Shown piece after piece: positions 1 through 7,593 of a DNA stretch of 64,000 nucleotides. Where the stretch lies: the IMG/VR virus record IMGVR_UViG_3300007276_000045, positions 1-64,000 of that record; one strand, written 5' to 3'. Position 1 is the first letter of the stretch. The number at the start of each line of letters is the position of its first letter. Below the pieces are notes generated by a model. The model was not told the origin of the DNA. It saw only the letters and a list, made by a program, of their open reading frames with translations, and did not search any database. The position numbers were made by a program, and so were the translations under genes. Origin of the DNA: a virus.

Positions 1-434
1 AATAGTTCATCCATCTCATCCCAAAGCTCTGACCCCATCGCTTCGTCAATAGGAGTAAGGCTACTACCTTGTTTTACGTTGTCAGCAGCCTTTCTAATCT
101 GATCAATGTCAGGGTGATGATGCGTGGGAGTTCCTGTTACATACCTACGGCTAACTTCGCTCCAAGAGAATCCTACCTGATGCTTGCCTAGCTGACGAAG
201 CACAAAGATAGGGCAATTGATGCGTAGAGTAACCACAGGGTGCCGAAATGGAAGAAGATGCTTTTCCCTTGCCAAGTAGTTAATAAGTTTTGTATCTTTC
301 TCATAATCAAAGTCTATATGCTCTTTGTCAAAGGAACACCTCGCAGCATTTACAACGAGAAGGTCTCCTTCCCTAGTGTGGTTTAGAAGTTCTACAGAAC
401 CATAGTCCAAAACATTAATCTTACTTGCACTCAT
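1..434 (-). CDS. thyX: Flavin-dependent thymidylate synthase ThyX (runs off the left edge; missing from the ORF track)
   Basis: Manual translation from ATG 434: MSASKINVLDYGSVELLNHTREGDLLVVNAARCSF...KHLLPFRHP...PIFVLRQLGKHQVGFSWSEVSRRY, containing the VNAAR motif and a variant ThyX RH-x7-S-x-RY motif. Confidence 0.93.
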   Translation of the reverse strand, partial: MSASKINVLDYGSVELLNHTREGDLLVVNAARCSFDKEHIDFDYEKDTKLINYLAREKHLLPFRHPVVTLRINCPIFVLRQLGKHQVGFSWSEVSRRYVTGTPTHHHPDIDQIRKAADNVKQGSSLTPIDEAMGSELWDEMDEL

Positions 435-897
435 GTAAATCCTTAATAGCTACGTTATAACAATTAGCCTTGACCCTGAAACCGTTAGCAGGATCAATCT
501 TTCCTTTCTTCATGAATCGGGCGTTGTCGAAATACTCTTCCTTCTTCATCTCTCCCAAGATCCAACCTTTAGACAGATCAGATAATACTCGGACAAATAT
601 ATACTTGTCACAGTTCTGCTTTGTGTTGAAAGCGGCCACTGAACAATCATAGTCTGGTTTTGGCGTTACTGTAGTACGTTTTGTTTTTACATCTACAGTC
701 TTACCCTCTGGGGTACGGAGGTCATAGTCGTAGGTGCTGTCAGTGGAGTAGCCTAGCTCCTCTCGGACTAAGATTTCCCCCAAACAGCCTGCTAGATTAC
801 CAGCACCCTTCTCAATAGAGTTTTTTAACTTACCAATTTCCATAGCACACTTCCTCGCTTCGAGGAGCATGTCATCCGTAATAGTTACTTCGATCAT
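421..897 (-). CDS. Putative PD-(D/E)XK nuclease-fold protein
   Basis: GCLGE...YDYDL...VDVKTK spacing typical of the restriction-endonuclease-like fold. Confidence 0.6.
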   Translation of the reverse strand: MIEVTITDDMLLEARKCAMEIGKLKNSIEKGAGNLAGCLGEILVREELGYSTDSTYDYDLRTPEGKTVDVKTKRTTVTPKPDYDCSVAAFNTKQNCDKYIFVRVLSDLSKGWILGEMKKEEYFDNARFMKKGKIDPANGFRVKANCYNVAIKDLHECK

Positions 898-2005
898 TTA
901 GATAGTCCTTAATTTCTTCTAGGTTTTGTGGGCTTCCATTAACATATTCGACATCAACTCCGTCACCGAAAGAGAAGCCTACTTCAGCGTCGATCTTCAA
1001 GGGTACGTCAAAGTGAATATTAAAGTTCTCTTTGATGAAAGGATAATCAACAAGCTGGGTGTGAACTACTTCCAAACATTCTTTGATGTGGTCCTTGTGG
1101 CAGATCAACTCAATACTATCGTGTACCGTAGCGCACACTCTCGCGTCGATCCCCCTTTCATTTAGAACCTTCTCTGTGCCGAGCAGACCACAAAGTAGAA
1201 TGTCGGAGGCAGTTGATTGGATAGTAAAGTTTAGCCCTTGCCTAGCCGCACGGTTAACCACCGAAAAATCTTTTGAACCAATATCAGGTAGATTGCGGCG
1301 ACGGCCAAAGATAGTGTAAGCATATTTGTTTTCCTTGATGAACTTCTCAACGAAGTCCATGTATTCGAAGATGGCGGGGTACACATTTTGATAGTTTGCA
1401 ATAATCTTCTTGGCTTTACCTACGGTAATACCCGTGGTCTCTGCCAAGTTAAAGGCACCGCCACCGTAGGCGATTAAGAAGGAGATAGCCTTTGCAATCT
1501 GGCGTTCATCTTTTGAGATCTCCTGCTTGTTGAACAATAGGCGAGCGGTGTAGGTGTGCAAGTCAGCACCTTCAGAGAAGGCTTTTTGCATGTTCCCATC
1601 CTTCGCAATGTGTGCTAGGACTCTTAGCTCCATGGCTGCGTAGTCAACCGTGATGAAGCAATAGTCTTCTGGGCAGTTGAAGAGGCTGCGGATATTATTA
1701 TCCGTATCTCTTGGTAGGGTGTGGAAAGATACACCCATAGCTTTCTGCGCGTTATATGCAGCACAAGAAAGGCGACCAGTAGCAGTGCCATCAAATCGAT
1801 AATCTACATAGACTCGATTAATGTCATTGTATTCAATTGCCTTCTTAGTCCCTTCGATATAGGTCTTGGTTAGCTTCTGCGACTTGCGAAGACCTAGGAG
1901 ACCCTTAATGAACCTTTGCGAATTTATTAGATCCTCGGTTGATTTTCCTTGCAGGACAGACTGGCTGATCCTCTTACCTTCATCTCTGTGATCCCACTTA
2001 CCCAC
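872..2005 (-). CDS. polA: Family A DNA polymerase, C-terminal polymerase subunit (part 3 of a split gene)
   Basis: TATGRLS, motif A DYAAMELRVLAH, motif B RQIAKAISFLIAYG, TIFGRRR, NFTIQSTASD, motif C TVHDSI; GTG start with GAGGAG 10 nt upstream. Confidence 0.95.
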   Translation of the reverse strand: MGKWDHRDEGKRISQSVLQGKSTEDLINSQRFIKGLLGLRKSQKLTKTYIEGTKKAIEYNDINRVYVDYRFDGTATGRLSCAAYNAQKAMGVSFHTLPRDTDNNIRSLFNCPEDYCFITVDYAAMELRVLAHIAKDGNMQKAFSEGADLHTYTARLLFNKQEISKDERQIAKAISFLIAYGGGAFNLAETTGITVGKAKKIIANYQNVYPAIFEYMDFVEKFIKENKYAYTIFGRRRNLPDIGSKDFSVVNRAARQGLNFTIQSTASDILLCGLLGTEKVLNERGIDARVCATVHDSIELICHKDHIKECLEVVHTQLVDYPFIKENFNIHFDVPLKIDAEVGFSFGDGVDVEYVNGSPQNLEEIKDYLNDRSNYYG

Positions 2006-2477
2006 GCTTATTTAGCTCCTCTTCGATGTGTTCCAGTAGTAGTTTAAGCGTAGGAGCAGACACGGAAGGTGTGCCCTTGGCTGTTCGGTCAGGAGGGTAC
2101 ATCTCGAACGCACCTTCACGGGTATATAATATCTCGATCAGGTCGTTATTTGAAGAGATGTTGTCAGAAGTCTGAACCTGCTTGAATGAGTAGAGATTAT
2201 CCTCCTCTTCAATATTAGCCACGCGGAGGTGGCGACCGACAGAATCTAGTTTCTCCTCACACACCTGCATCCCTTCATACTCCATATTAGAGAAGGTCTC
2301 AAGAGACGGCATGATGAGGGTATTAATAATCTTAGACATACCTAGATCTTCAAGCTTCTCTTGTATTAGATTGTAAAGCTTTAGAGTGAAGTATGTGTCC
2401 GCTGCGTTACCTTCACAGCAGTCGGACAGATCCATGTTTGCCCAGTCAAAGGTCTTAGGGTTCTTAATTGTAAGCAT
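1998..2477 (-). CDS. polA: Family A DNA polymerase, middle subunit (exo III helix and thumb; part 2 of a split gene)
   Basis: NAADTYFTLKLY (exo III region), MEYEGMQV, NISSNNDLIEILY (FNxxSxxQL equivalent), TAKGTPSVS thumb motif; TAATG overlap with the upstream gene. Confidence 0.88.
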   Translation of the reverse strand: MLTIKNPKTFDWANMDLSDCCEGNAADTYFTLKLYNLIQEKLEDLGMSKIINTLIMPSLETFSNMEYEGMQVCEEKLDSVGRHLRVANIEEEDNLYSFKQVQTSDNISSNNDLIEILYTREGAFEMYPPDRTAKGTPSVSAPTLKLLLEHIEEELNKRG

Positions 2478-3490
2478 TACAGGTTCTCCAGTTCGTCTGC
2501 GAAGTATAGTTTTACTAGATCCATAAGGCTCTTAGGTGCATTCTCATTGATGAGGTGGTGTGCGATCTTAGTGTCCCAAACATTCGTAACCTTGACACGG
2601 TGATTAATGAGGAACTTAAGATCAAACTTTGCGTTATGGAAAATCTTAATGTTGTTAGGGTTCGAGAGGATCTTTCGCACCGCATCCCAAGCCACATGTT
2701 TCTCTAGGAACGGTGAGTCTTTGTGATCAAGAGGAACAACCCAATTCTGATCTCCACAAGAAAACGCAATGGACATTACGCGATCTCTCCTAAAGTTCAG
2801 ACCTGTGGTTTCAATATCAGATGCTACAGGCTCCTTAGTGGAGCCTAGCTTCTCAACTAGCGATACAAGTTCTTCTTCCTCGGAGATAACCTCATAGGAG
2901 AAGTTCCCTTGGTTCTCTTTGCCAAGTACATATTTTTCATATGCATTTTTGATGTCTGTTTCGAAGAGGTATCTGTGTCGAGGCTCTTTAAGTACAGCAA
3001 AAGGATGGTAAATAGGAACAACGATGCAAGAGTGCCCAGAATTAGTAGAGTATTCATATGATGATCCACGCTTATTCATAATGCCGCTTTTCTTAATTAA
3101 CATTTTCATAGCTAAGTTGCCACAAGCAAGAACAAGGCGCGGCTTCACCTTGTCAATTGTAGCCTCTAAGTGCTGTCTACATAACACCATATTACTAGGT
3201 GTCATATCTGCCTCCTTCACAGAAGGACATTTTACTGAAGAGGAGAACGTAAGATTGTCGCCGGGGTAAATCGACTTCAATAACTCGCGCTCCTTTTTGG
3301 AGAATACTTCTAGTACCCCAAACTTACTGCGGAAGGAATCTCCCAAAACCAGAACGTCTGATTGGGAAAGTTCCTCGTAATCCATGTGGGCATACTCAGG
3401 CTTACTCTGTTGTAGTATTGTGCATCCATCACACAGTTCGTTACTGCAACTGGACTTAAGTCCTGAGTATAAGTTTTGTAGGTCGCTCAT
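2477..3490 (-). CDS. polA: Family A DNA polymerase, N-terminal subunit: family-4 UDG-like domain plus 3'-5' exonuclease motifs I/II (part 1 of a split gene)
   Basis: CDGC...VKCP...CRQHL...KPRLVLACG...PIYHP (UDG-like fold with Fe-S cysteines), then SDIETTG (exo I), HNAKFDL (exo II) and WDTKIAHHL. Confidence 0.9.
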   Translation of the reverse strand: MSDLQNLYSGLKSSCSNELCDGCTILQQSKPEYAHMDYEELSQSDVLVLGDSFRSKFGVLEVFSKKERELLKSIYPGDNLTFSSSVKCPSVKEADMTPSNMVLCRQHLEATIDKVKPRLVLACGNLAMKMLIKKSGIMNKRGSSYEYSTNSGHSCIVVPIYHPFAVLKEPRHRYLFETDIKNAYEKYVLGKENQGNFSYEVISEEEELVSLVEKLGSTKEPVASDIETTGLNFRRDRVMSIAFSCGDQNWVVPLDHKDSPFLEKHVAWDAVRKILSNPNNIKIFHNAKFDLKFLINHRVKVTNVWDTKIAHHLINENAPKSLMDLVKLYFADELENL

Positions 3491-3493
3491 CCG

Positions 3494-3504
3494 TCTATTA
3501 TAGA
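3494..3504. promoter_or_regulatory. Near-palindromic bidirectional -10-like box TCTATTATAGA between divergent polA part 1 and the gp55-like gene
   Basis: Minus strand reads TATAAT + 6 nt + ATG (3490); plus strand reads TATTAT + 5 nt + ATG (3507); intergenic gap is only 16 bp. Confidence 0.65.
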
Positions 3505-3506
3505 TT

Positions 3507-3863
3507 ATGGGGAAAAAAGTACATTACATAGATAACAAAAGATTTGAAGAAATTATCCCCCTCTACCTACGAAACCCTGAGGCTTACGAGGATGAGTTGA
3601 TGGGACTGTTCGATCTATTGATCACGAATATTATAGGAAGCTTCAAGTTTAATATCGACAAAGAGGACGCAAAACAAGAATGTTTCTTGCTGGTCCTAAA
3701 GACGTTGAAGAATTTCAAACCGTCTAAAGGATCTGCCTTTAACTATTTTACGACCGTCATTGTCAACAACCTCAAACTTCTATACACGAAGAATAAGAGG
3801 TATGAAAACAAACTCTCCGAGTATGGAGATATACTGGGTGATCAGAGACCCAGTTGCTTATAG
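3507..3863 (+). CDS. Short T4 gp55-like sigma factor for late transcription
   Basis: HYIDNKRF and NFKPSKGSAFNYFT match the HYVNN and NFDPxK...FxYFT motifs of gp55-family proteins; only 118 aa. Confidence 0.75.
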   Translation: MGKKVHYIDNKRFEEIIPLYLRNPEAYEDELMGLFDLLITNIIGSFKFNIDKEDAKQECFLLVLKTLKNFKPSKGSAFNYFTTVIVNNLKLLYTKNKRYENKLSEYGDILGDQRPSCL

Positions 3864-4168
3864 ACCATCGACAGGTAGTCCTCGGACTCCATACTCCCGC
3901 GCTTAAATTGCACAAGATGCGGAACCTTCGATGTCTTAAAGATGACAAATGCGTGAGGCATCATAAAGCTGTTCACCACATAAAGAGGCTTTAGTTTACG
4001 ATTAACCGGGCCGTCCGTCTTCATCCCTCGAACCTTTTCAATCAGTTCCTTGGAATGATCGTCCCACAGGGAGACAAATAAGACACCCATATCCTGCTTA
4101 GTCTTCCTCTGATTCCTAAGAATCTTATTCAGTTGATTCTCAGTACGAATGAATACAGGTGAGTACAT
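3842..4168 (-). CDS. Thioredoxin-fold protein lacking the CxxC active site
   Basis: Aligns by eye with thioredoxin: VLFVSLWDDHSK (vs VDFWAEWCGPCK), LYVVN strand, KVPHLVQFKRG (vs GIPTLLLFKNG cis-Pro loop); no Cys in the protein. Confidence 0.7.
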   Translation of the reverse strand: MYSPVFIRTENQLNKILRNQRKTKQDMGVLFVSLWDDHSKELIEKVRGMKTDGPVNRKLKPLYVVNSFMMPHAFVIFKTSKVPHLVQFKRGSMESEDYLSMVYKQLGL

Positions 4169-4524
4169 CAGTCCTCTACAATATCGACGTTTCCACTTGC
4201 AGTAGCTTCGTCAATGCCGACGAGCTTACCCTGATCGTCAAAGTTGAACCCTGACGCTTCATAGTCCTCACGGTTCTGTTCCATATGCTGGACCATGTTC
4301 GTGGTGAGTTCCTGCTCCAAAGCACGGATGCCATGGAAAAAGAGGGACCGTACAAAGTCGGTCATTCCGAGATCAGTAGGCTTAACAGCGTTTGCAAAGT
4401 TGCGGAAGGCTTCAGCCTCCTCCTGATTGAGTTTGAGTTGGAACTTCATTCTATTTTTACTCCGATAGTCGATTTTGATATTCCACCCCTCAGGATGGAA
4501 AGCGAATTTCAAGTCGTTAGACAT
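4168..4524 (-). CDS. Hypothetical protein, possible ribbon-helix-helix DNA-binding fold
   Basis: MKFQLKLNQEEAEAF...MTDFVRSLF strand-helix-helix pattern; overlaps the start of the downstream gene. Confidence 0.4.
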   Translation of the reverse strand: MSNDLKFAFHPEGWNIKIDYRSKNRMKFQLKLNQEEAEAFRNFANAVKPTDLGMTDFVRSLFFHGIRALEQELTTNMVQHMEQNREDYEASGFNFDDQGKLVGIDEATASGNVDIVED

Positions 4525-4562
4525 TATTGATTGCTCTATTATAGTAAGAGGTTTAAGAAACT

Positions 4563-5081
4563 ATGAATGATAATTACGATTTAAGTAAGCTTCGCAAAAA
4601 ACCTAAGCGGAAGAACAGCAGGACCAAAGGTAACACCTTCGAACGGCAGATTGCCAAGCTACTCAATGATAGATTCAAGACCGAAGAATTTTCAAGAAGT
4701 CCGGGATCTGGTGCATTTGCCACCACCCATACTCTACCTGAACACCTAAAAATTTATGGAGACTTGATTACTCCACAGAAATTTAAATTCTGTATTGAAT
4801 GTAAAAAAGGATACAATAATCAAAACTTATATAGTTTATATAATTATAGTAGCGACATCTGGAAGTTTGTAGAGCAATGTGAAAAAGATTCTGGAAAATG
4901 TAGCAGACTACCCATGGTCATCTTTAAGCAAGATAGACAGCCAACATTAGCCATTGTTCCCTATGATGTAGAGTTCGGACAAGATCTCAAGTACATAGAG
5001 GTTATGAAGCAGAAGAAGTACAGGATCTATTTATTTGATGATCTTGTTAAGTGCTGGGACCATTGTTGGTTTGATGCATGA
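4563..5081 (+). CDS. PD-(D/E)XK nuclease, Holliday-junction-resolvase-like
   Basis: NSRTKGNTFERQIA, RSPGSGA, GDLI, IECKK, PMVIFKQDR: the Hjc-like phage resolvase pattern. Confidence 0.75.
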   Translation: MNDNYDLSKLRKKPKRKNSRTKGNTFERQIAKLLNDRFKTEEFSRSPGSGAFATTHTLPEHLKIYGDLITPQKFKFCIECKKGYNNQNLYSLYNYSSDIWKFVEQCEKDSGKCSRLPMVIFKQDRQPTLAIVPYDVEFGQDLKYIEVMKQKKYRIYLFDDLVKCWDHCWFDA

Positions 5082-7593
5082 GCTTTTCTAATAGCTCTCT
5101 CTGACCTTTGAGGAAGGTTATAAACAACTCTTCTTCCTCAGCACTCTTATCTTCGGACAATACATTTCGATGACCAGACTTTGTACCCATAGTCCACTTC
5201 TGGTTACCTCTTGCAGTGTCACAAGAAACTAAGGTGTCCCCGGTCTTCCTATCTACTAGTTTGATGGTTCCCCCTCCTCCGTATTCGAAGTAGGCTTTAT
5301 TGTCTTTGATCTTTTGCAGGTTATCTTCCACAACAGCATTGTTTAGATACACACTTTGGTAACTATCACCCAACCCTCTAGTGACCCTTAAGGTCTCCTC
5401 CATACTTCCAGCAGCTTGGCTGTAGCACATTGTTGCCCAAGACTTCCACCCTTCATCCGTTACTTCGCCTTGTGGCATTTCTTGTTTTAGAACTTCTTGC
5501 TGAATATCCTGCTTCACTTTTGCCAGCGCATCCAAATCTTCCTTAGTAGCGTTAGGTCTCATAGCCCTCTTAGCTGCTTCAGCCCTTTCTTTATTTTTAG
5601 GACTCTGCTGCTTCTTCTCAAACCAAGTGTTGATCCAAGCGTCAGACATCTCTGGAGTAACTCCCAATGATCCGGGAGTTAGTAATCTATCGAACTCCGC
5701 AGTCTTCTCATCAATCTCTTTTTGTTTAGCGCAGCCAGCTTTTTGAGTTCCTGCTCCCGCACAGGAATTTAATCTTTTTGAGTTACGCTTTGCAAAGTCC
5801 TTTGTGCCTTGAGTCATGCCACCCGGTACATCACTGCCAACAGTTGCATTACCGCAAATAGCTTGGGTTCTACTACTTGATATCTCACCCACACCCCCCT
5901 TACTTTTTGAATCGGTAAGAGTTTTTAGCTCTACCTCCATGACGCAACCCCCTCCTTCGGTTGGAGTCAGCATGTTTTTAACTCCAGAACCTTCTCCCCC
6001 ACAACCATTCTTAGGGGTTCCTCCAAGCTTCTTTTCATAAGAAGCAGCAACCTTGTCACAGTCCTTATCAAACTCGAACTTAAGATCAGCTTTTGCCCCA
6101 GAATCGGTCATGTTTTTGTCCCCTTCGTGGGTAACCTTGGTTGGGATAAGATCTGGATCGTCACCGAAAAGCTGCTTGTCAAAGGTTTGGTTAACGAATG
6201 AAGTAACAAGGATAGACATCATGAGTTGCCTATCCGATGGCGTAGATGCCTGTTCAATGAAAGCCTCAGCCTTCTTTTCGTCCATCCCCATCTCCTCAGT
6301 TAGCACTCGCTGACATTCAATAACAAATTGGGCATCCTCGTAAGCGGCTTCCCCTTTTGCTAAAAGCTCCCCTAGCGCAACCGACCTACCTACAGAAAAA
6401 GTTTCCATCATTTGATCGTAGCTGCCATCACTAAGTGCATCTTCATAAGTATCGGAGATACTTTGCCGCATTTCATGGAGAGCCTTCTTCTTCTCTGCAC
6501 CAGTCTCAGCTTGGGCGAACTTCGCTTGCCCCCTCATGATGTTCGCAGAGATGGTCATGAATTTCTCTGCTACTGGACCACGGTAAGACTCATTTACACC
6601 CCCTGTTTTCGCAGGAGATTCAGGAGGTTTTGCGACAGGAATTTTATACTTTCTCTGATCCTCATCTGGTAGATTCTCTAGTTGTTTGTTATACCTCTCA
6701 GCTTCGTTATTAAGCTGATCAACCATATTCCTAAGAGCATCATTTTTTGGAGAAGACTTCTCTCTAAACTGGAATCCGATGCCCCTAATAAGAACACCCC
6801 CGCGAGTAATAGTAATAGACTCAAGAAGCTTGCCTAGTTTCTTAGCTTCGGCCTCACTCATAGGCTCTTCACTACCTGCTCTTCCCCGTAACTGCCTGAT
6901 AGATAAGTCAATTTGTTGAAGACCTTCTAGTGCTCCAAGCTTTTCTTCTGGGGAAAGCTTATCTGAATTAAACACTTGCTGCTCTAACCTTTCAACGTCC
7001 CCGAAAAAACCTTTGGTCTGTCCTGCGGCTACGTTTGCAAGGGAATCAATACCTCTACCTCTCTTCTCTTCCAGACCGGGTGTGATACCTGCCATTTGTG
7101 CAAGCTCTCTAAAAGAGGTTACTACTTTCTCTGTTAGGTCTTGTACTTGCTTGATCATAGCCAAGCCTTGATCATCTCCACCTTCGCCTTCTTGCCCCTC
7201 TTCACCAGTGTCGCCTTGGTCCTTGGTGTCGCCTTCTTCCTCACCACCACCTGCCCATGCTTTCACTAATTTGTTAGCATTACTATTTTCTTTTTGCCAA
7301 GAAGTAGCCAAGCTTCCGATCTGAGAGCCACTAAGTTTAATTCCCCAACCTGAGAGATTGCTTCCAGTAACACTAACACCTTTTCCTTTGGTTACTTCAA
7401 CACTTAAATTTTTACCGTTACCTAAGCCCTCTTCTTTATGGCCCTCTTCTTCATTACGAATTCGGCCTAATTCAGTAGCTACATCGTTTGCTACCGAAGC
7501 TAGATCAGCCGCTTCTTCCTCACGCAAAGAGAGTCTAAATTTTCTGCGCTTTAACTGTTCGTAATTTTCTAAGAGTGAGTAGTAGTAATCCAT
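5047..7593 (-). CDS. Large hypothetical protein (848 aa), possibly head-packaged, with a possible PD-(D/E)XK core
   Basis: Long ORF with its own promoter-like box; KADL...EVELKT motif; N-terminal LLE/LRE sites. Confidence 0.55.
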   Translation of the reverse strand: MDYYYSLLENYEQLKRRKFRLSLREEEAADLASVANDVATELGRIRNEEEGHKEEGLGNGKNLSVEVTKGKGVSVTGSNLSGWGIKLSGSQIGSLATSWQKENSNANKLVKAWAGGGEEEGDTKDQGDTGEEGQEGEGGDDQGLAMIKQVQDLTEKVVTSFRELAQMAGITPGLEEKRGRGIDSLANVAAGQTKGFFGDVERLEQQVFNSDKLSPEEKLGALEGLQQIDLSIRQLRGRAGSEEPMSEAEAKKLGKLLESITITRGGVLIRGIGFQFREKSSPKNDALRNMVDQLNNEAERYNKQLENLPDEDQRKYKIPVAKPPESPAKTGGVNESYRGPVAEKFMTISANIMRGQAKFAQAETGAEKKKALHEMRQSISDTYEDALSDGSYDQMMETFSVGRSVALGELLAKGEAAYEDAQFVIECQRVLTEEMGMDEKKAEAFIEQASTPSDRQLMMSILVTSFVNQTFDKQLFGDDPDLIPTKVTHEGDKNMTDSGAKADLKFEFDKDCDKVAASYEKKLGGTPKNGCGGEGSGVKNMLTPTEGGGCVMEVELKTLTDSKSKGGVGEISSSRTQAICGNATVGSDVPGGMTQGTKDFAKRNSKRLNSCAGAGTQKAGCAKQKEIDEKTAEFDRLLTPGSLGVTPEMSDAWINTWFEKKQQSPKNKERAEAAKRAMRPNATKEDLDALAKVKQDIQQEVLKQEMPQGEVTDEGWKSWATMCYSQAAGSMEETLRVTRGLGDSYQSVYLNNAVVEDNLQKIKDNKAYFEYGGGGTIKLVDRKTGDTLVSCDTARGNQKWTMGTKSGHRNVLSEDKSAEEEELFITFLKGQRELLEKLMHQTNNGPST

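What the first reader, a model, noticed from the sequence alone, without database searches (positions are those of the whole stretch)
872..3490. Family A DNA polymerase encoded as three separate, translationally coupled subunits
Seen: the PolA motifs are colinear but distributed over three ORFs: UDG-like + exo I/II (337 aa), exo III + thumb (159 aa), and palm/fingers (377 aa). Junction 1 is a TAATG overlap with GGAG 8 nt before the ATG. Junction 2 is an 8-nt GTGGGTAA overlap with GAGGAG 10 nt upstream. The two junctions shift frame in opposite directions (-1 and +1), have no slippery heptamer and carry no intein or intron sequence. Extra helical segments flank break 2 (LLLEHIEEELNKRG and MGKWDHRDEGKRISQSVLQGKSTEDL). 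Established: Pol I, T7 and SPO1-type PolA are single chains, and T4-like phages normally use family B gp43. Inference: a heterotrimeric PolA whose proofreading site is assembled from two polypeptides and whose thumb is shared between two.
Basis: partly seen in the sequence, partly recalled or inferred. Interest (0 to 1): 0.85.

Follow-up and report, generated by a model that had tools for sequence, protein, structure and literature searches.

The report
Three-gene split phage DNA polymerase
This uncultured aquatic tailed phage, like many related phage contigs, encodes its Pol I-type DNA polymerase as three separate conserved genes cut inside the proofreading domain and inside the thumb, so the enzyme most likely works as a three-protein complex and is not a broken gene.

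Summary
Three minus-strand ORFs, 2477-3490, 1998-2477 and 872-2005, carry in order a UDG-like domain with ExoI/II, ExoIII with the first half of the thumb, and the rest of the thumb with palm and fingers.

It is not an assembly error. Contigs from four other runs cross both junctions without indels. All 80 of 80 IMG/VR relatives examined keep part 2 and part 3 as separate ORFs. In 39 of the 73 loci where junction 1 can be read, unrelated genes sit between parts 1 and 2. One locus has a gene between parts 2 and 3. No intron, intein or conserved slippery site was found, and all three parts are under purifying selection.

A two-gene form (part 1, then parts 2+3 fused) and a single-chain UDG-exo-pol form also exist.

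Physical assembly into a heterotrimer is inferred, not shown. Split PolAs are already in print, as the exo|pol split of T7-like cyanophages (PMC10201439). I found no paper describing this three-piece, intradomain split. It is a new variant of a known kind. This scan has already found the same three-gene polymerase on other genomes.

The parts
2477..3490 (-). polA part 1 (337 aa): UDG-like domain plus ExoI and ExoII of the 3'-5' exonuclease
   Evidence: The profile of 24 homologues matches family-4 UDG 4zbx (E 3e-14) and Klenow chain positions 7-136.
2930..3361 (-). UDG-like (family 4) domain, residues about 44-187 of part 1. Four Cys are invariant (C20, C23, C88, C104). The stretch aligned to the UDG 'GEAPG' segment reads LSDS-like.
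   Evidence: The motif name and the Fe-S role of the Cys are recalled, not tested.
2498..2896 (-). Exonuclease N-terminal part, residues 199-331. ExoI is D225/E227 (DIETTGL); ExoII is N286/D290 (HNAKFDLKFL). All are invariant in 24 of 24 homologues.
2475..2489 (-). Junction 1: GGAG, 8 nt, then a TAATG stop/start overlap (frame -1).
   Evidence: The same overlap occurs in 34 of 73 evaluable relatives.
1998..2477 (-). polA part 2 (159 aa): ExoIII helix (invariant D27, with invariant G23 where Klenow has Tyr), the linker, and the ascending thumb with its tip hairpin and PSxS motif.
   Evidence: The AF2 model has pLDDT 92.4.
1998..2021 (-). Junction 2: GAGGAG, 10 nt, then a GTGGGTAA start/stop overlap (frame +1).
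   Evidence: An 8-nt overlap of this type occurs in 66 of 80 relatives, and four other arrangements in the remaining 14.
872..2005 (-). polA part 3 (377 aa): descending thumb helix, palm and fingers. Invariant in 23 of 23 homologues: motif A D121, motif B R168/K172/F176/Y180, motif C H295-D296.

Best explanation
A single ancestral UDG-like/exonuclease/polymerase (UDG-PolA) gene has undergone two gene fissions. The phage now makes three polypeptides. A carries the UDG-like domain and ExoI/II. B carries ExoIII and the first half of the thumb. C carries the second half of the thumb, the palm and the fingers. They are most likely made from one transcript, with stop/start overlaps and Shine-Dalgarno-like GGAG/GAGGAG elements giving coupled translation. 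They most likely reassemble non-covalently into one Pol I-shaped replicative enzyme, in which B bridges A and C by completing the exonuclease fold of A and the thumb of C. Shown: the three separate, conserved, selected genes, the positions of the cuts, and retention of the catalytic carboxylates. Inferred: coupling, co-assembly and activity.
For: (1) The three pieces are colinear on one polymerase profile. On Klenow chain numbering they map to 7-136, 158-294 and 299-584. (2) Of the 80 IMG/VR loci examined (the best 80 of 214 matching stretches; 61 distinct part-2 DNA sequences), 80 of 80 have part 2 and part 3 as separate ORFs with their own start codon (GTG in 67, ATG in 13). None has part 2 fused to part 1 or part 3. 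(3) Junction 1 holds 173-2403 nt of unrelated DNA or genes in 39 of 73 evaluable loci. Junction 2 holds a 585-nt insert with a gene in 1 of 80 loci, L064. (4) Junction 2 occurs in five arrangements: an 8-nt overlap in 66 loci, spelled GTGGGTAA, GTGAGTAA, GTGTCTAA, GTGGCTAA, GTGGTTAA or GTGGGTAG; ATGA in 10; a 26-nt overlap in 2; a 1-nt overlap in 1; and a gap in 1. So there is no conserved slip site. (5) In the whole-library search with part 2, 81 of the 146 cluster representatives that matched are stand-alone proteins of 150-190 aa, mostly matching end to end. (6) Contigs of four runs from four studies cross both junctions with 0 gaps, and no indels are listed. (7) pN is 0.08-0.22 against pS 0.55-0.93 for all three parts in 5 pairwise comparisons. 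(8) Catalytic residues are invariant: D225/E227/D290 in part 1, D27 in part 2, D121 and D296 in part 3. (9) The new termini are themselves conserved: part 2 starts ML in 43 of 43 homologues, and part 1 ends with a conserved LYFxxELExL. That fits docking surfaces better than loose ends. (10) No second polymerase (PF00136) is found in the 72.7-kb record, though the record is only about 65% complete.
Against: There is no direct evidence of binding or activity. The single complex job returned 'no answer', so I do not count it either way. Part 3 modelled alone has low confidence over residues 1-103. That could reflect a missing partner or simply a shallow alignment. The Klenow ExoIII Tyr position is an invariant Gly in the split family, and the motif C Glu is Ser, so proofreading or catalysis may differ from Pol I. 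The record is incomplete, so another polymerase could exist. No RNA or proteome data are available.
Confidence: 0.85

Rival explanations
1. Assembly or sequencing indels, or a decaying pseudogene, broke a single polA gene.
For: Two frame changes within 500 nt of one gene are what indel errors would produce.
Against: The same breaks occur in 80 of 80 relatives at 59-86% part-2 identity. Contigs from four runs have 0 gaps across both junctions. Purifying selection acts on all three parts. Start codons are conserved at both junctions.
Confidence: 0.01
2. Programmed recoding, for example a +1 shift at GGG_TAA_G of junction 2 or a -1 shift at junction 1, makes a fused chain. The ORF boundaries would then be regulatory and would not mark subunit ends.
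For: In this window a P-site GGG followed by a stop could in principle allow an RF2-like +1 slip. In the part-3 frame, the last stop lies only three codons upstream of the GTG.
Against: The GGG_TAA context is replaced in relatives by GAG_TAA, GTC_TAA, GCT_TAA, GGG_TAG, ATGA overlaps, a 26-nt overlap and a 585-nt gene insert. A start codon is kept in 80 of 80 loci. The GAGGAG spacing of 10 nt fits initiation and does not fit the 3-nt spacing of the RF2 shift site (the RF2 rule is recalled). Junction 1 holds whole genes, some antisense, in 39 of 73 loci.
Confidence: 0.04
3. The pieces are rejoined by an intron or by a split or ordinary intein.
For: Phage polymerase genes often carry group I introns and inteins (stated in PMC10580990, passages read).
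Against: The junctions are overlaps of 1 and 8 nt, which leaves no room for an element. No Rfam match above noise was found in 1-6000 (the only hit was mir-84 at E 0.62). There is no Hint/intein Pfam hit in any part. The extra residues flanking break 2 (12 + about 30 aa) are far shorter than split-intein halves (sizes recalled).
Confidence: 0.01
4. The three proteins no longer form one enzyme. Part 3 would be an exo-less polymerase, part 1 a free UDG-like/nuclease protein, and part 2 an accessory factor.
For: Gene order can be interrupted by other genes. The ExoIII Tyr is lost. Binding is unproven.
Against: Part 2 carries the invariant ExoIII Asp and half of the thumb, and neither is a folding unit on its own. 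The part-2 model is elongated (pTM 0.52 at pLDDT 92.4). It matches PolA large fragments only loosely when taken alone (best Foldseek E 0.13, rmsd about 10 A). In every locus where all three parts can be seen (73 of the 80; the other 7 are cut upstream by the contig end), they lie together and in order.
Confidence: 0.08

Closest known systems
S-SBP1-like / S-TIP37-like (clade B) T7-like cyanophage PolA, split into exo and pol genes (Czernecki et al. 2023, PMC10201439, passages read; PMC12695635, passages read)
   Same: It is a natural gene fission of a phage family A polymerase into separately translated, adjacent genes. There is no intein or intron, and the products are presumed to re-associate.
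   Different: It has one cut at the exo/pol domain boundary, and the new termini are described as solvent-exposed. Here there are two cuts, both inside structural units (between ExoII and ExoIII, and inside the thumb). The termini are conserved and there is an N-terminal UDG-like domain. The lineage differs: the best GenBank phage matches of part 3 are SPO1-type and actinophage PolAs at about 29-34% identity.
Single-chain UDG-PolA of phages (SPO1, SP-10, SP-15; N4-like cluster 17) (PMC10201439, passages read)
   Same: The domain order is the same: family-4 UDG-like, 3'-5' exo, pol. An unsplit 778-aa metagenomic relative with this order exists (P0126).
   Different: Those are one polypeptide. 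Here the same order is spread over three genes, and the Klenow ExoIII Tyr position is Gly.
MEP401-type OM43 phage PolA, two ORFs separated by a small unknown ORF (PMC10580990, passages read)
   Same: A split PolA with an unrelated small ORF lodged in the gap, conserved across a group of metagenomic genomes.
   Different: It has a single cut inside the PF00476 polymerase domain, in a podovirus-type 43-kb genome. No cut in the exonuclease is described.
PhiKZ split family B polymerase DNAP-N/DNAP-C (bioRxiv 10.64898/2026.09.30.755723, abstract read)
   Same: Experimental precedent that a phage polymerase encoded in separate genes forms a stable stoichiometric complex.
   Different: Family B, two pieces, different fold details. 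It is a chimallivirus.
Split gp43 (PolB) of some T4-related phages and the split nrdA of Aeromonas phage Aeh1
   Same: 'Genes in pieces' in T4-type phages whose products reassemble.
   Different: Those splits are associated with homing-endonuclease insertions. No HNH, GIY-YIG or LAGLIDADG gene was found among the 10 inserted ORFs I scanned.

Membership tests
Family A DNA polymerase (Pol I type) | Polymerase domain matching PF00476 above the curated cut-off | tested here: met
   Part 3 scores 258.7 bits against a cut-off of 34.3, over profile positions 65-380 of 381. The best PDB match is Bst Pol I at E 1.6e-54.
Family A DNA polymerase (Pol I type) | Catalytic Asp of motif A and motif C, and motif B R/K/Y | tested here: met
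   D121, D296, R168, K172 and Y180 are invariant in 23 of 23 homologues. Motif names and roles are recalled. The Glu after the motif C Asp is Ser (HDS) in all 23.
DEDDy 3'-5' proofreading exonuclease of PolA | Four carboxylates (ExoI D and E, ExoII D, ExoIII D) | tested here: met
   D225, E227 and D290 are invariant in part 1. D27 is invariant in part 2 and aligns to the Klenow ExoIII Asp. The residues lie on two different polypeptides.
DEDDy 3'-5' proofreading exonuclease of PolA | ExoIII Tyr four residues before the Asp | tested here: not met
   The position is Gly in 43 of 43 stand-alone part-2 homologues and in the 6 forms with parts 2+3 fused. It is Tyr in the unsplit relatives P0126 and P0127.
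UDG-PolA (Czernecki et al. 2023) | N-terminal family-4 UDG-like domain ahead of exo and pol | tested here: met
   PF03167 scores 32.6 bits against a cut-off of 24.3. The profile matches family-4 UDG 4zbx at E 3e-14.
UDG-PolA (Czernecki et al. 2023) | UDG catalytic residues retained | tested here: inconclusive
   The segment aligned to the UDG active-site loop differs (LSDS-like), while His-Pro and four Cys are conserved. No activity can be read from this.
S-SBP1-like split PolA | A single fission at the exo/pol domain boundary in a T7-like PolA | tested here: not met
   The cuts map to about Klenow chain positions 149-152 (between ExoII and ExoIII) and 294-299 (thumb). The genome is a contractile-tailed phage, with sheath and tube genes.
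Intron- or intein-interrupted polymerase gene | An intervening element with ribozyme or Hint features | tested here: not met
   The junctions overlap by 1 and 8 nt. There is no Rfam hit and no Hint Pfam hit.
Programmed ribosomal frameshift gene | A conserved slippery site with no independent start on the downstream frame | tested here: not met
   Junction 2 takes five different arrangements, and a start codon is present in 80 of 80 loci.

The most novel reading that the evidence does not exclude
The tripartite layout is a functional innovation and not merely a tolerated fission. In this reading, subunit B (ExoIII plus half of the thumb) is a separately dosed adaptor that couples the grip on duplex DNA to a remodelled proofreading site, in which the ExoIII Tyr is lost in the whole split clade. 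The two cut sites have become stable intergenic slots where the phage lineage swaps accessory genes. The thumb cut may have been gained or lost more than once.
Probability: 0.25. Interest if true: 0.75.

Novelty: new variant of a known kind. Interest (0 to 1): 0.58.

Why it matters
Family A polymerases are the textbook single-chain polymerases and are workhorses of biotechnology. A natural, widespread version has its proofreading site built from two chains and its thumb from two chains. This shows where the fold tolerates cuts and gives ready-made split points for engineering. It also raises a question: does separate synthesis allow regulation of proofreading relative to synthesis? Practically, gene callers and marker-gene surveys that expect one polA ORF will miscount or mis-annotate this abundant aquatic phage group.

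Tried and rejected
Steps that led nowhere or gave weak results:

- Complex prediction with all three chains (alignments A3, A1, A4; partner = part 2) returned 'no answer'. The score was 0.91, but the control with chain 3 replaced scored 0.87. I use it neither for nor against binding. Pairwise jobs, which the tool suggested, were not possible because the cap is one job.
- The look-up of sequencing runs listed no RNA holder, so nothing can be said about expression.
- The promoter/terminator scan of 300-3700 found 9 promoter-like sites against 6.3 +/- 1.9 in shuffles, none placed at a junction. It is not informative.
- Foldseek of the part-2 model against the PDB gave only weak matches (best E 0.13), almost all to PolA large fragments. 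I use it only as a hint that part 2 alone is not a compact domain.
- The AF2 model of part 3 alone had pLDDT below 50 over residues 1-21, 32-50 and 59-103, and below 55 on average in every 10-residue block up to 110. The helical nature of its N-terminal extension is therefore only weakly supported.
- blastn of the region against GenBank phages gave no match. tblastn of part 2 gave 20 records, all weak matches inside intact PolA genes. tblastn of part 3 gave at most about 34% identity among the 40 best records listed.
- The genome-contig scan with part 2 found no relative, so there is no host clue.
- The tree of the part-2 region is the quick version only, built on 161 columns, with 47 of 99 inner branches unresolved. 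Thirteen of 14 unsplit rows form one clade (support 98). The 6 fused-2+3 rows fall in several places among stand-alone rows (for example P0090 with P0065, support 95). This hints at repeated gain or loss of break 2 but does not establish it. Rows left out: 40 fragments under 150 aa, P0107, P0108, P0130, P0141 and P0145.
- Homing-endonuclease origin of the cuts: 10 inserted ORFs were scanned. Only 2OG-Fe(II) oxygenase-type hits in L064 came up, and no endonuclease family apart from a weak endonuclease V PHROG hit (E 4e-4) on the L064 junction-2 ORF.
- Far-T4 affiliation was considered. The Far-T4 paper (PMC4360716, passages read) does not describe polymerase splitting, and I did not test membership.
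- Literature searches for a three-piece PolA found none. A term search inside PMC6302109 gave zero occurrences of split, UDG and similar terms.
Full report
**1. Observation.** The window holds three consecutive minus-strand ORFs: 2477-3490 (337 aa), 1998-2477 (159 aa) and 872-2005 (377 aa, GTG start).
- Junction 1, read directly, is TAATG (2479-2475), preceded by GGAG (2489-2486) with 8 nt between.
- Junction 2 is GTGGGTAA (2005-1998), preceded by GAGGAG (2021-2016) with 10 nt between.
- The frame offsets are -1 and +1.
- Part 1 matches Pfam UDG and DNA_pol_A_exo1. Part 2 has no Pfam match. Part 3 matches DNA_pol_A from profile position 65 to 380.
- All three are colinear on PHROG 17, at positions 481-785, 794-926 and 931-1257.

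**2. Where the cuts fall.** I built family profiles for each part: A3 with 24 sequences, A1 with 43 and A4 with 23.
- Against solved structures, part 1 positions 198-327 align with Klenow chain positions 7-136, part 2 positions 7-147 with 158-294, and part 3 positions 31-321 with 299-584.
- Break 1 lies after the ExoII helix and before ExoIII. ExoI D225/E227 and ExoII D290 are on part 1 and are invariant. The ExoIII Asp (D27, invariant) is on part 2.
- Break 2 lies just after the conserved PSxS segment of the thumb. About 12 residues at the end of part 2 and about 30 at the start of part 3 stand where Klenow has about four. So the cut sits inside a lineage-specific insertion in the descending thumb helix.
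- The AF2 model of part 2 (pLDDT 92.4, pTM 0.52) is an elongated set of helices (17-44, 48-68, 74-96, 110-119, 141-158) with a small hairpin at 130-138. This confirms a C-terminal helix next to the break.
- The N-terminal helices of part 3 are predicted only at low confidence.
- Names and roles of Klenow residues and helices are from my recall of the literature.

**3. Not an artefact.**
- The search for related loci with part 3 gave four independent relatives at 75-78% identity, all with the same three-ORF layout and the same junction sequences.
- With a 10-sequence part-2 alignment, 214 IMG/VR stretches encode a relative. The best 80 were fetched and all were examined.
- Part 2 and part 3 are separate ORFs in 80 of 80. 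Part 1 is seen upstream in 73 of 80; the other 7 are cut by the contig start.
- No ORF combines two parts. Part 3 starts with GTG in 67 loci and ATG in 13. The 80 loci hold 61 distinct part-2 DNA sequences.
- Contigs from four runs of four studies, none flagged as a possible source of this record, bridge both junctions with 0 gaps, and no indels are listed. These are assembled contigs at depth about 3-6, not raw reads.
- For all three parts pN (0.08-0.22) is far below pS (0.55-0.93, saturated) in five comparisons.

**4. The junctions are real gene boundaries.**
- Junction 1 is the TAATG overlap in 34 of 73 evaluable loci. In the other 39 it is a gap of 173-2403 nt.
- The gaps hold unrelated ORFs: a 91-aa hydrophobic ORF (L005/L006, L032, L061); antisense ORFs that share a GESIWNTY-like motif (L037, L039, L043, L050, L073); larger antisense ORFs (L059, L068); and a 2OG-Fe(II) oxygenase (L064).
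- Junction 2 is an 8-nt overlap in 66 loci (six spellings), ATGA in 10, a 26-nt overlap in 2 and a 1-nt overlap in 1. In L064 it is a 585-nt gap holding a 179-aa ORF.
- This variety removes any conserved slippery site. The antisense inserts at junction 1 and the L064 insert at junction 2 make a read-through fusion impossible in those genomes.
- No Rfam family matches in 1-6000 apart from noise, and no Hint domain was found.

**5. Breadth and history.**
- A whole-library phmmer search with part 2 found 146 cluster representatives. By length: 81 are stand-alone proteins of 150-190 aa; 40 are shorter fragments; 6 are proteins of 515-563 aa that begin at the same ML... start and continue into a part-3-like polymerase (break 1 only); 2 are truncated versions of that kind; and 17 are longer proteins with an internal match, among them unsplit PolAs.
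- One two-gene locus was fetched, L007. It has a 332-aa part 1, then a 92-aa unrelated ORF, then a 563-aa fusion of parts 2+3.
- P0126 (778 aa) is a single chain with UDG-like, exo and pol regions in the same order.
- The simplest history runs from single chain, to a cut at break 1, to a cut at break 2.
- A quick, poorly resolved tree places the fused-2+3 forms at several positions among stand-alone forms. Repeated gain or loss of break 2 is possible but not shown.

**6. Peculiarities of the split clade.**
- The residue aligned to the Klenow ExoIII Tyr is Gly in 43 of 43 stand-alone part-2 proteins and in all 6 fused-2+3 forms. The unsplit P0126 and P0127 have Tyr.
- Motif C reads HDS instead of HDE in 23 of 23.
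- The UDG-like domain keeps four invariant Cys and the His-Pro segment but differs in the loop aligned to the UDG active-site motif.
- The new termini are conserved: ML at the start of part 2 in 43 of 43, and LYFxxELExL at the end of part 1. Since junction 1 overlaps by a single nucleotide, overlapping coding cannot explain this conservation. It points to protein-level constraint, plausibly docking.

**7. Context.**
- The window is part of a 72.7-kb IMG/VR virus record estimated to be 65% complete.
- It encodes a tail sheath, tail tube and major head protein, so it is a contractile-tailed phage.
- Next to the polymerase are ThyX (3-434), a PDDEXK endonuclease (4563-5081) and a divergent sigma-70 region-2-like gene (3507-3863).
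- No family B polymerase is detectable in the record.

**8. Mechanism.** The best-supported reading is a heterotrimeric PolA.
- Part 2 completes the exonuclease fold and active site of part 1, and completes the thumb of part 3.
- In this window the three cistrons are arranged for coupled translation.
- The gene structure, conservation and residue retention are shown. Coupling, assembly and activity are inferred.
- The single complex-prediction job gave no verdict and is listed only under Tried and rejected.

**9. Comparison with what is known.**
- Czernecki et al. 2023 (PMC10201439, passages read) describe UDG-PolAs as single chains. They describe an exo|pol fission in S-SBP1-like T7-like cyanophages as the first split seen in PolAs. 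That fission arose by a frameshift plus a new start, and its termini are solvent-exposed.
- Clade B T7-like cyanophages are treated as having a split polymerase in PMC12695635.
- MEP401-type OM43 phages have a PolA cut within the pol domain, with a small ORF in the gap (PMC10580990).
- PhiKZ has a split PolB that forms a stable 1:1 complex (bioRxiv 2026, abstract).
- I found no paper describing a three-gene PolA cut inside the exonuclease and the thumb (searches; term search). Supplements were closed.
- The case is therefore a new variant of a known kind.
- Earlier notes of this scan describe the same three-gene polymerase on other genomes, with the same conclusion. They led me to the Czernecki paper, which I then read myself.

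**10. Verdict.** Interest is moderate to high for polymerase and phage-replication specialists.

Noticed in passing
window 2409-2411 (part 2 residue G23): The position aligned to the Klenow ExoIII Tyr is an invariant Gly in the whole split clade (43 of 43 stand-alone and 6 of 6 fused-2+3 forms). It is Tyr in the unsplit relatives P0126 and P0127.
   Followed up: partly
window 1115-1123 (part 3 H295-D296-S297): Motif C reads HDS instead of the usual HDE in 23 of 23 homologues, and a Glu two residues later (E299) is invariant.
   Followed up: no
window 3842-4168 (-): A 108-aa ORF lies two genes upstream of polA part 1, and an ORF of similar size sits at the same relative position in L003 (654-983) and L004 (2848-3153).
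   Followed up: partly
window 3507-3863 (+): A 118-aa gene, divergent from polA across a 16-nt gap, matches Sigma70_r2 just above the cut-off (25.4 bits against 24). It may be a phage late sigma factor.
   Followed up: no
window 421-897 (-): A 158-aa ORF overlaps the 3' end of polA part 3 by 26 nt and has only sub-threshold Pfam hits. It is absent from L004/L005, where ThyX follows part 3 directly, so this is another variable slot.
   Followed up: no
L064 3366-3923 and 4539-5078: One relative carries a 2OG-Fe(II) oxygenase gene in junction 1. It also carries a 179-aa ORF in junction 2 (sub-threshold DUF6445 hit; PHROG 'minor coat protein' family). This is the only locus of the 80 with an insert between parts 2 and 3.
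   Followed up: partly
L037, L039, L043, L050, L073 (junction 1 gaps): Antisense ORFs of 85-207 aa share a GESIWNTY-like motif near the N-terminus and have basic tails. This is a recurrent gene family lodged between parts 1 and 2, with no Pfam or PHROG hit for the two members scanned.
   Followed up: partly
L005/L006 4253-4528, L032 972-1247, L061 3726-4001: A 91-aa hydrophobic (membrane-like) ORF, nearly identical in these loci, is inserted in the sense direction at junction 1 with stop/start overlaps on both sides.
   Followed up: no
window 5047-7593 (-): An 848-aa ORF between the endonuclease gene and the tail tube gene has no PHROG hit. It is rich in Gly, Glu and Lys.
   Followed up: no
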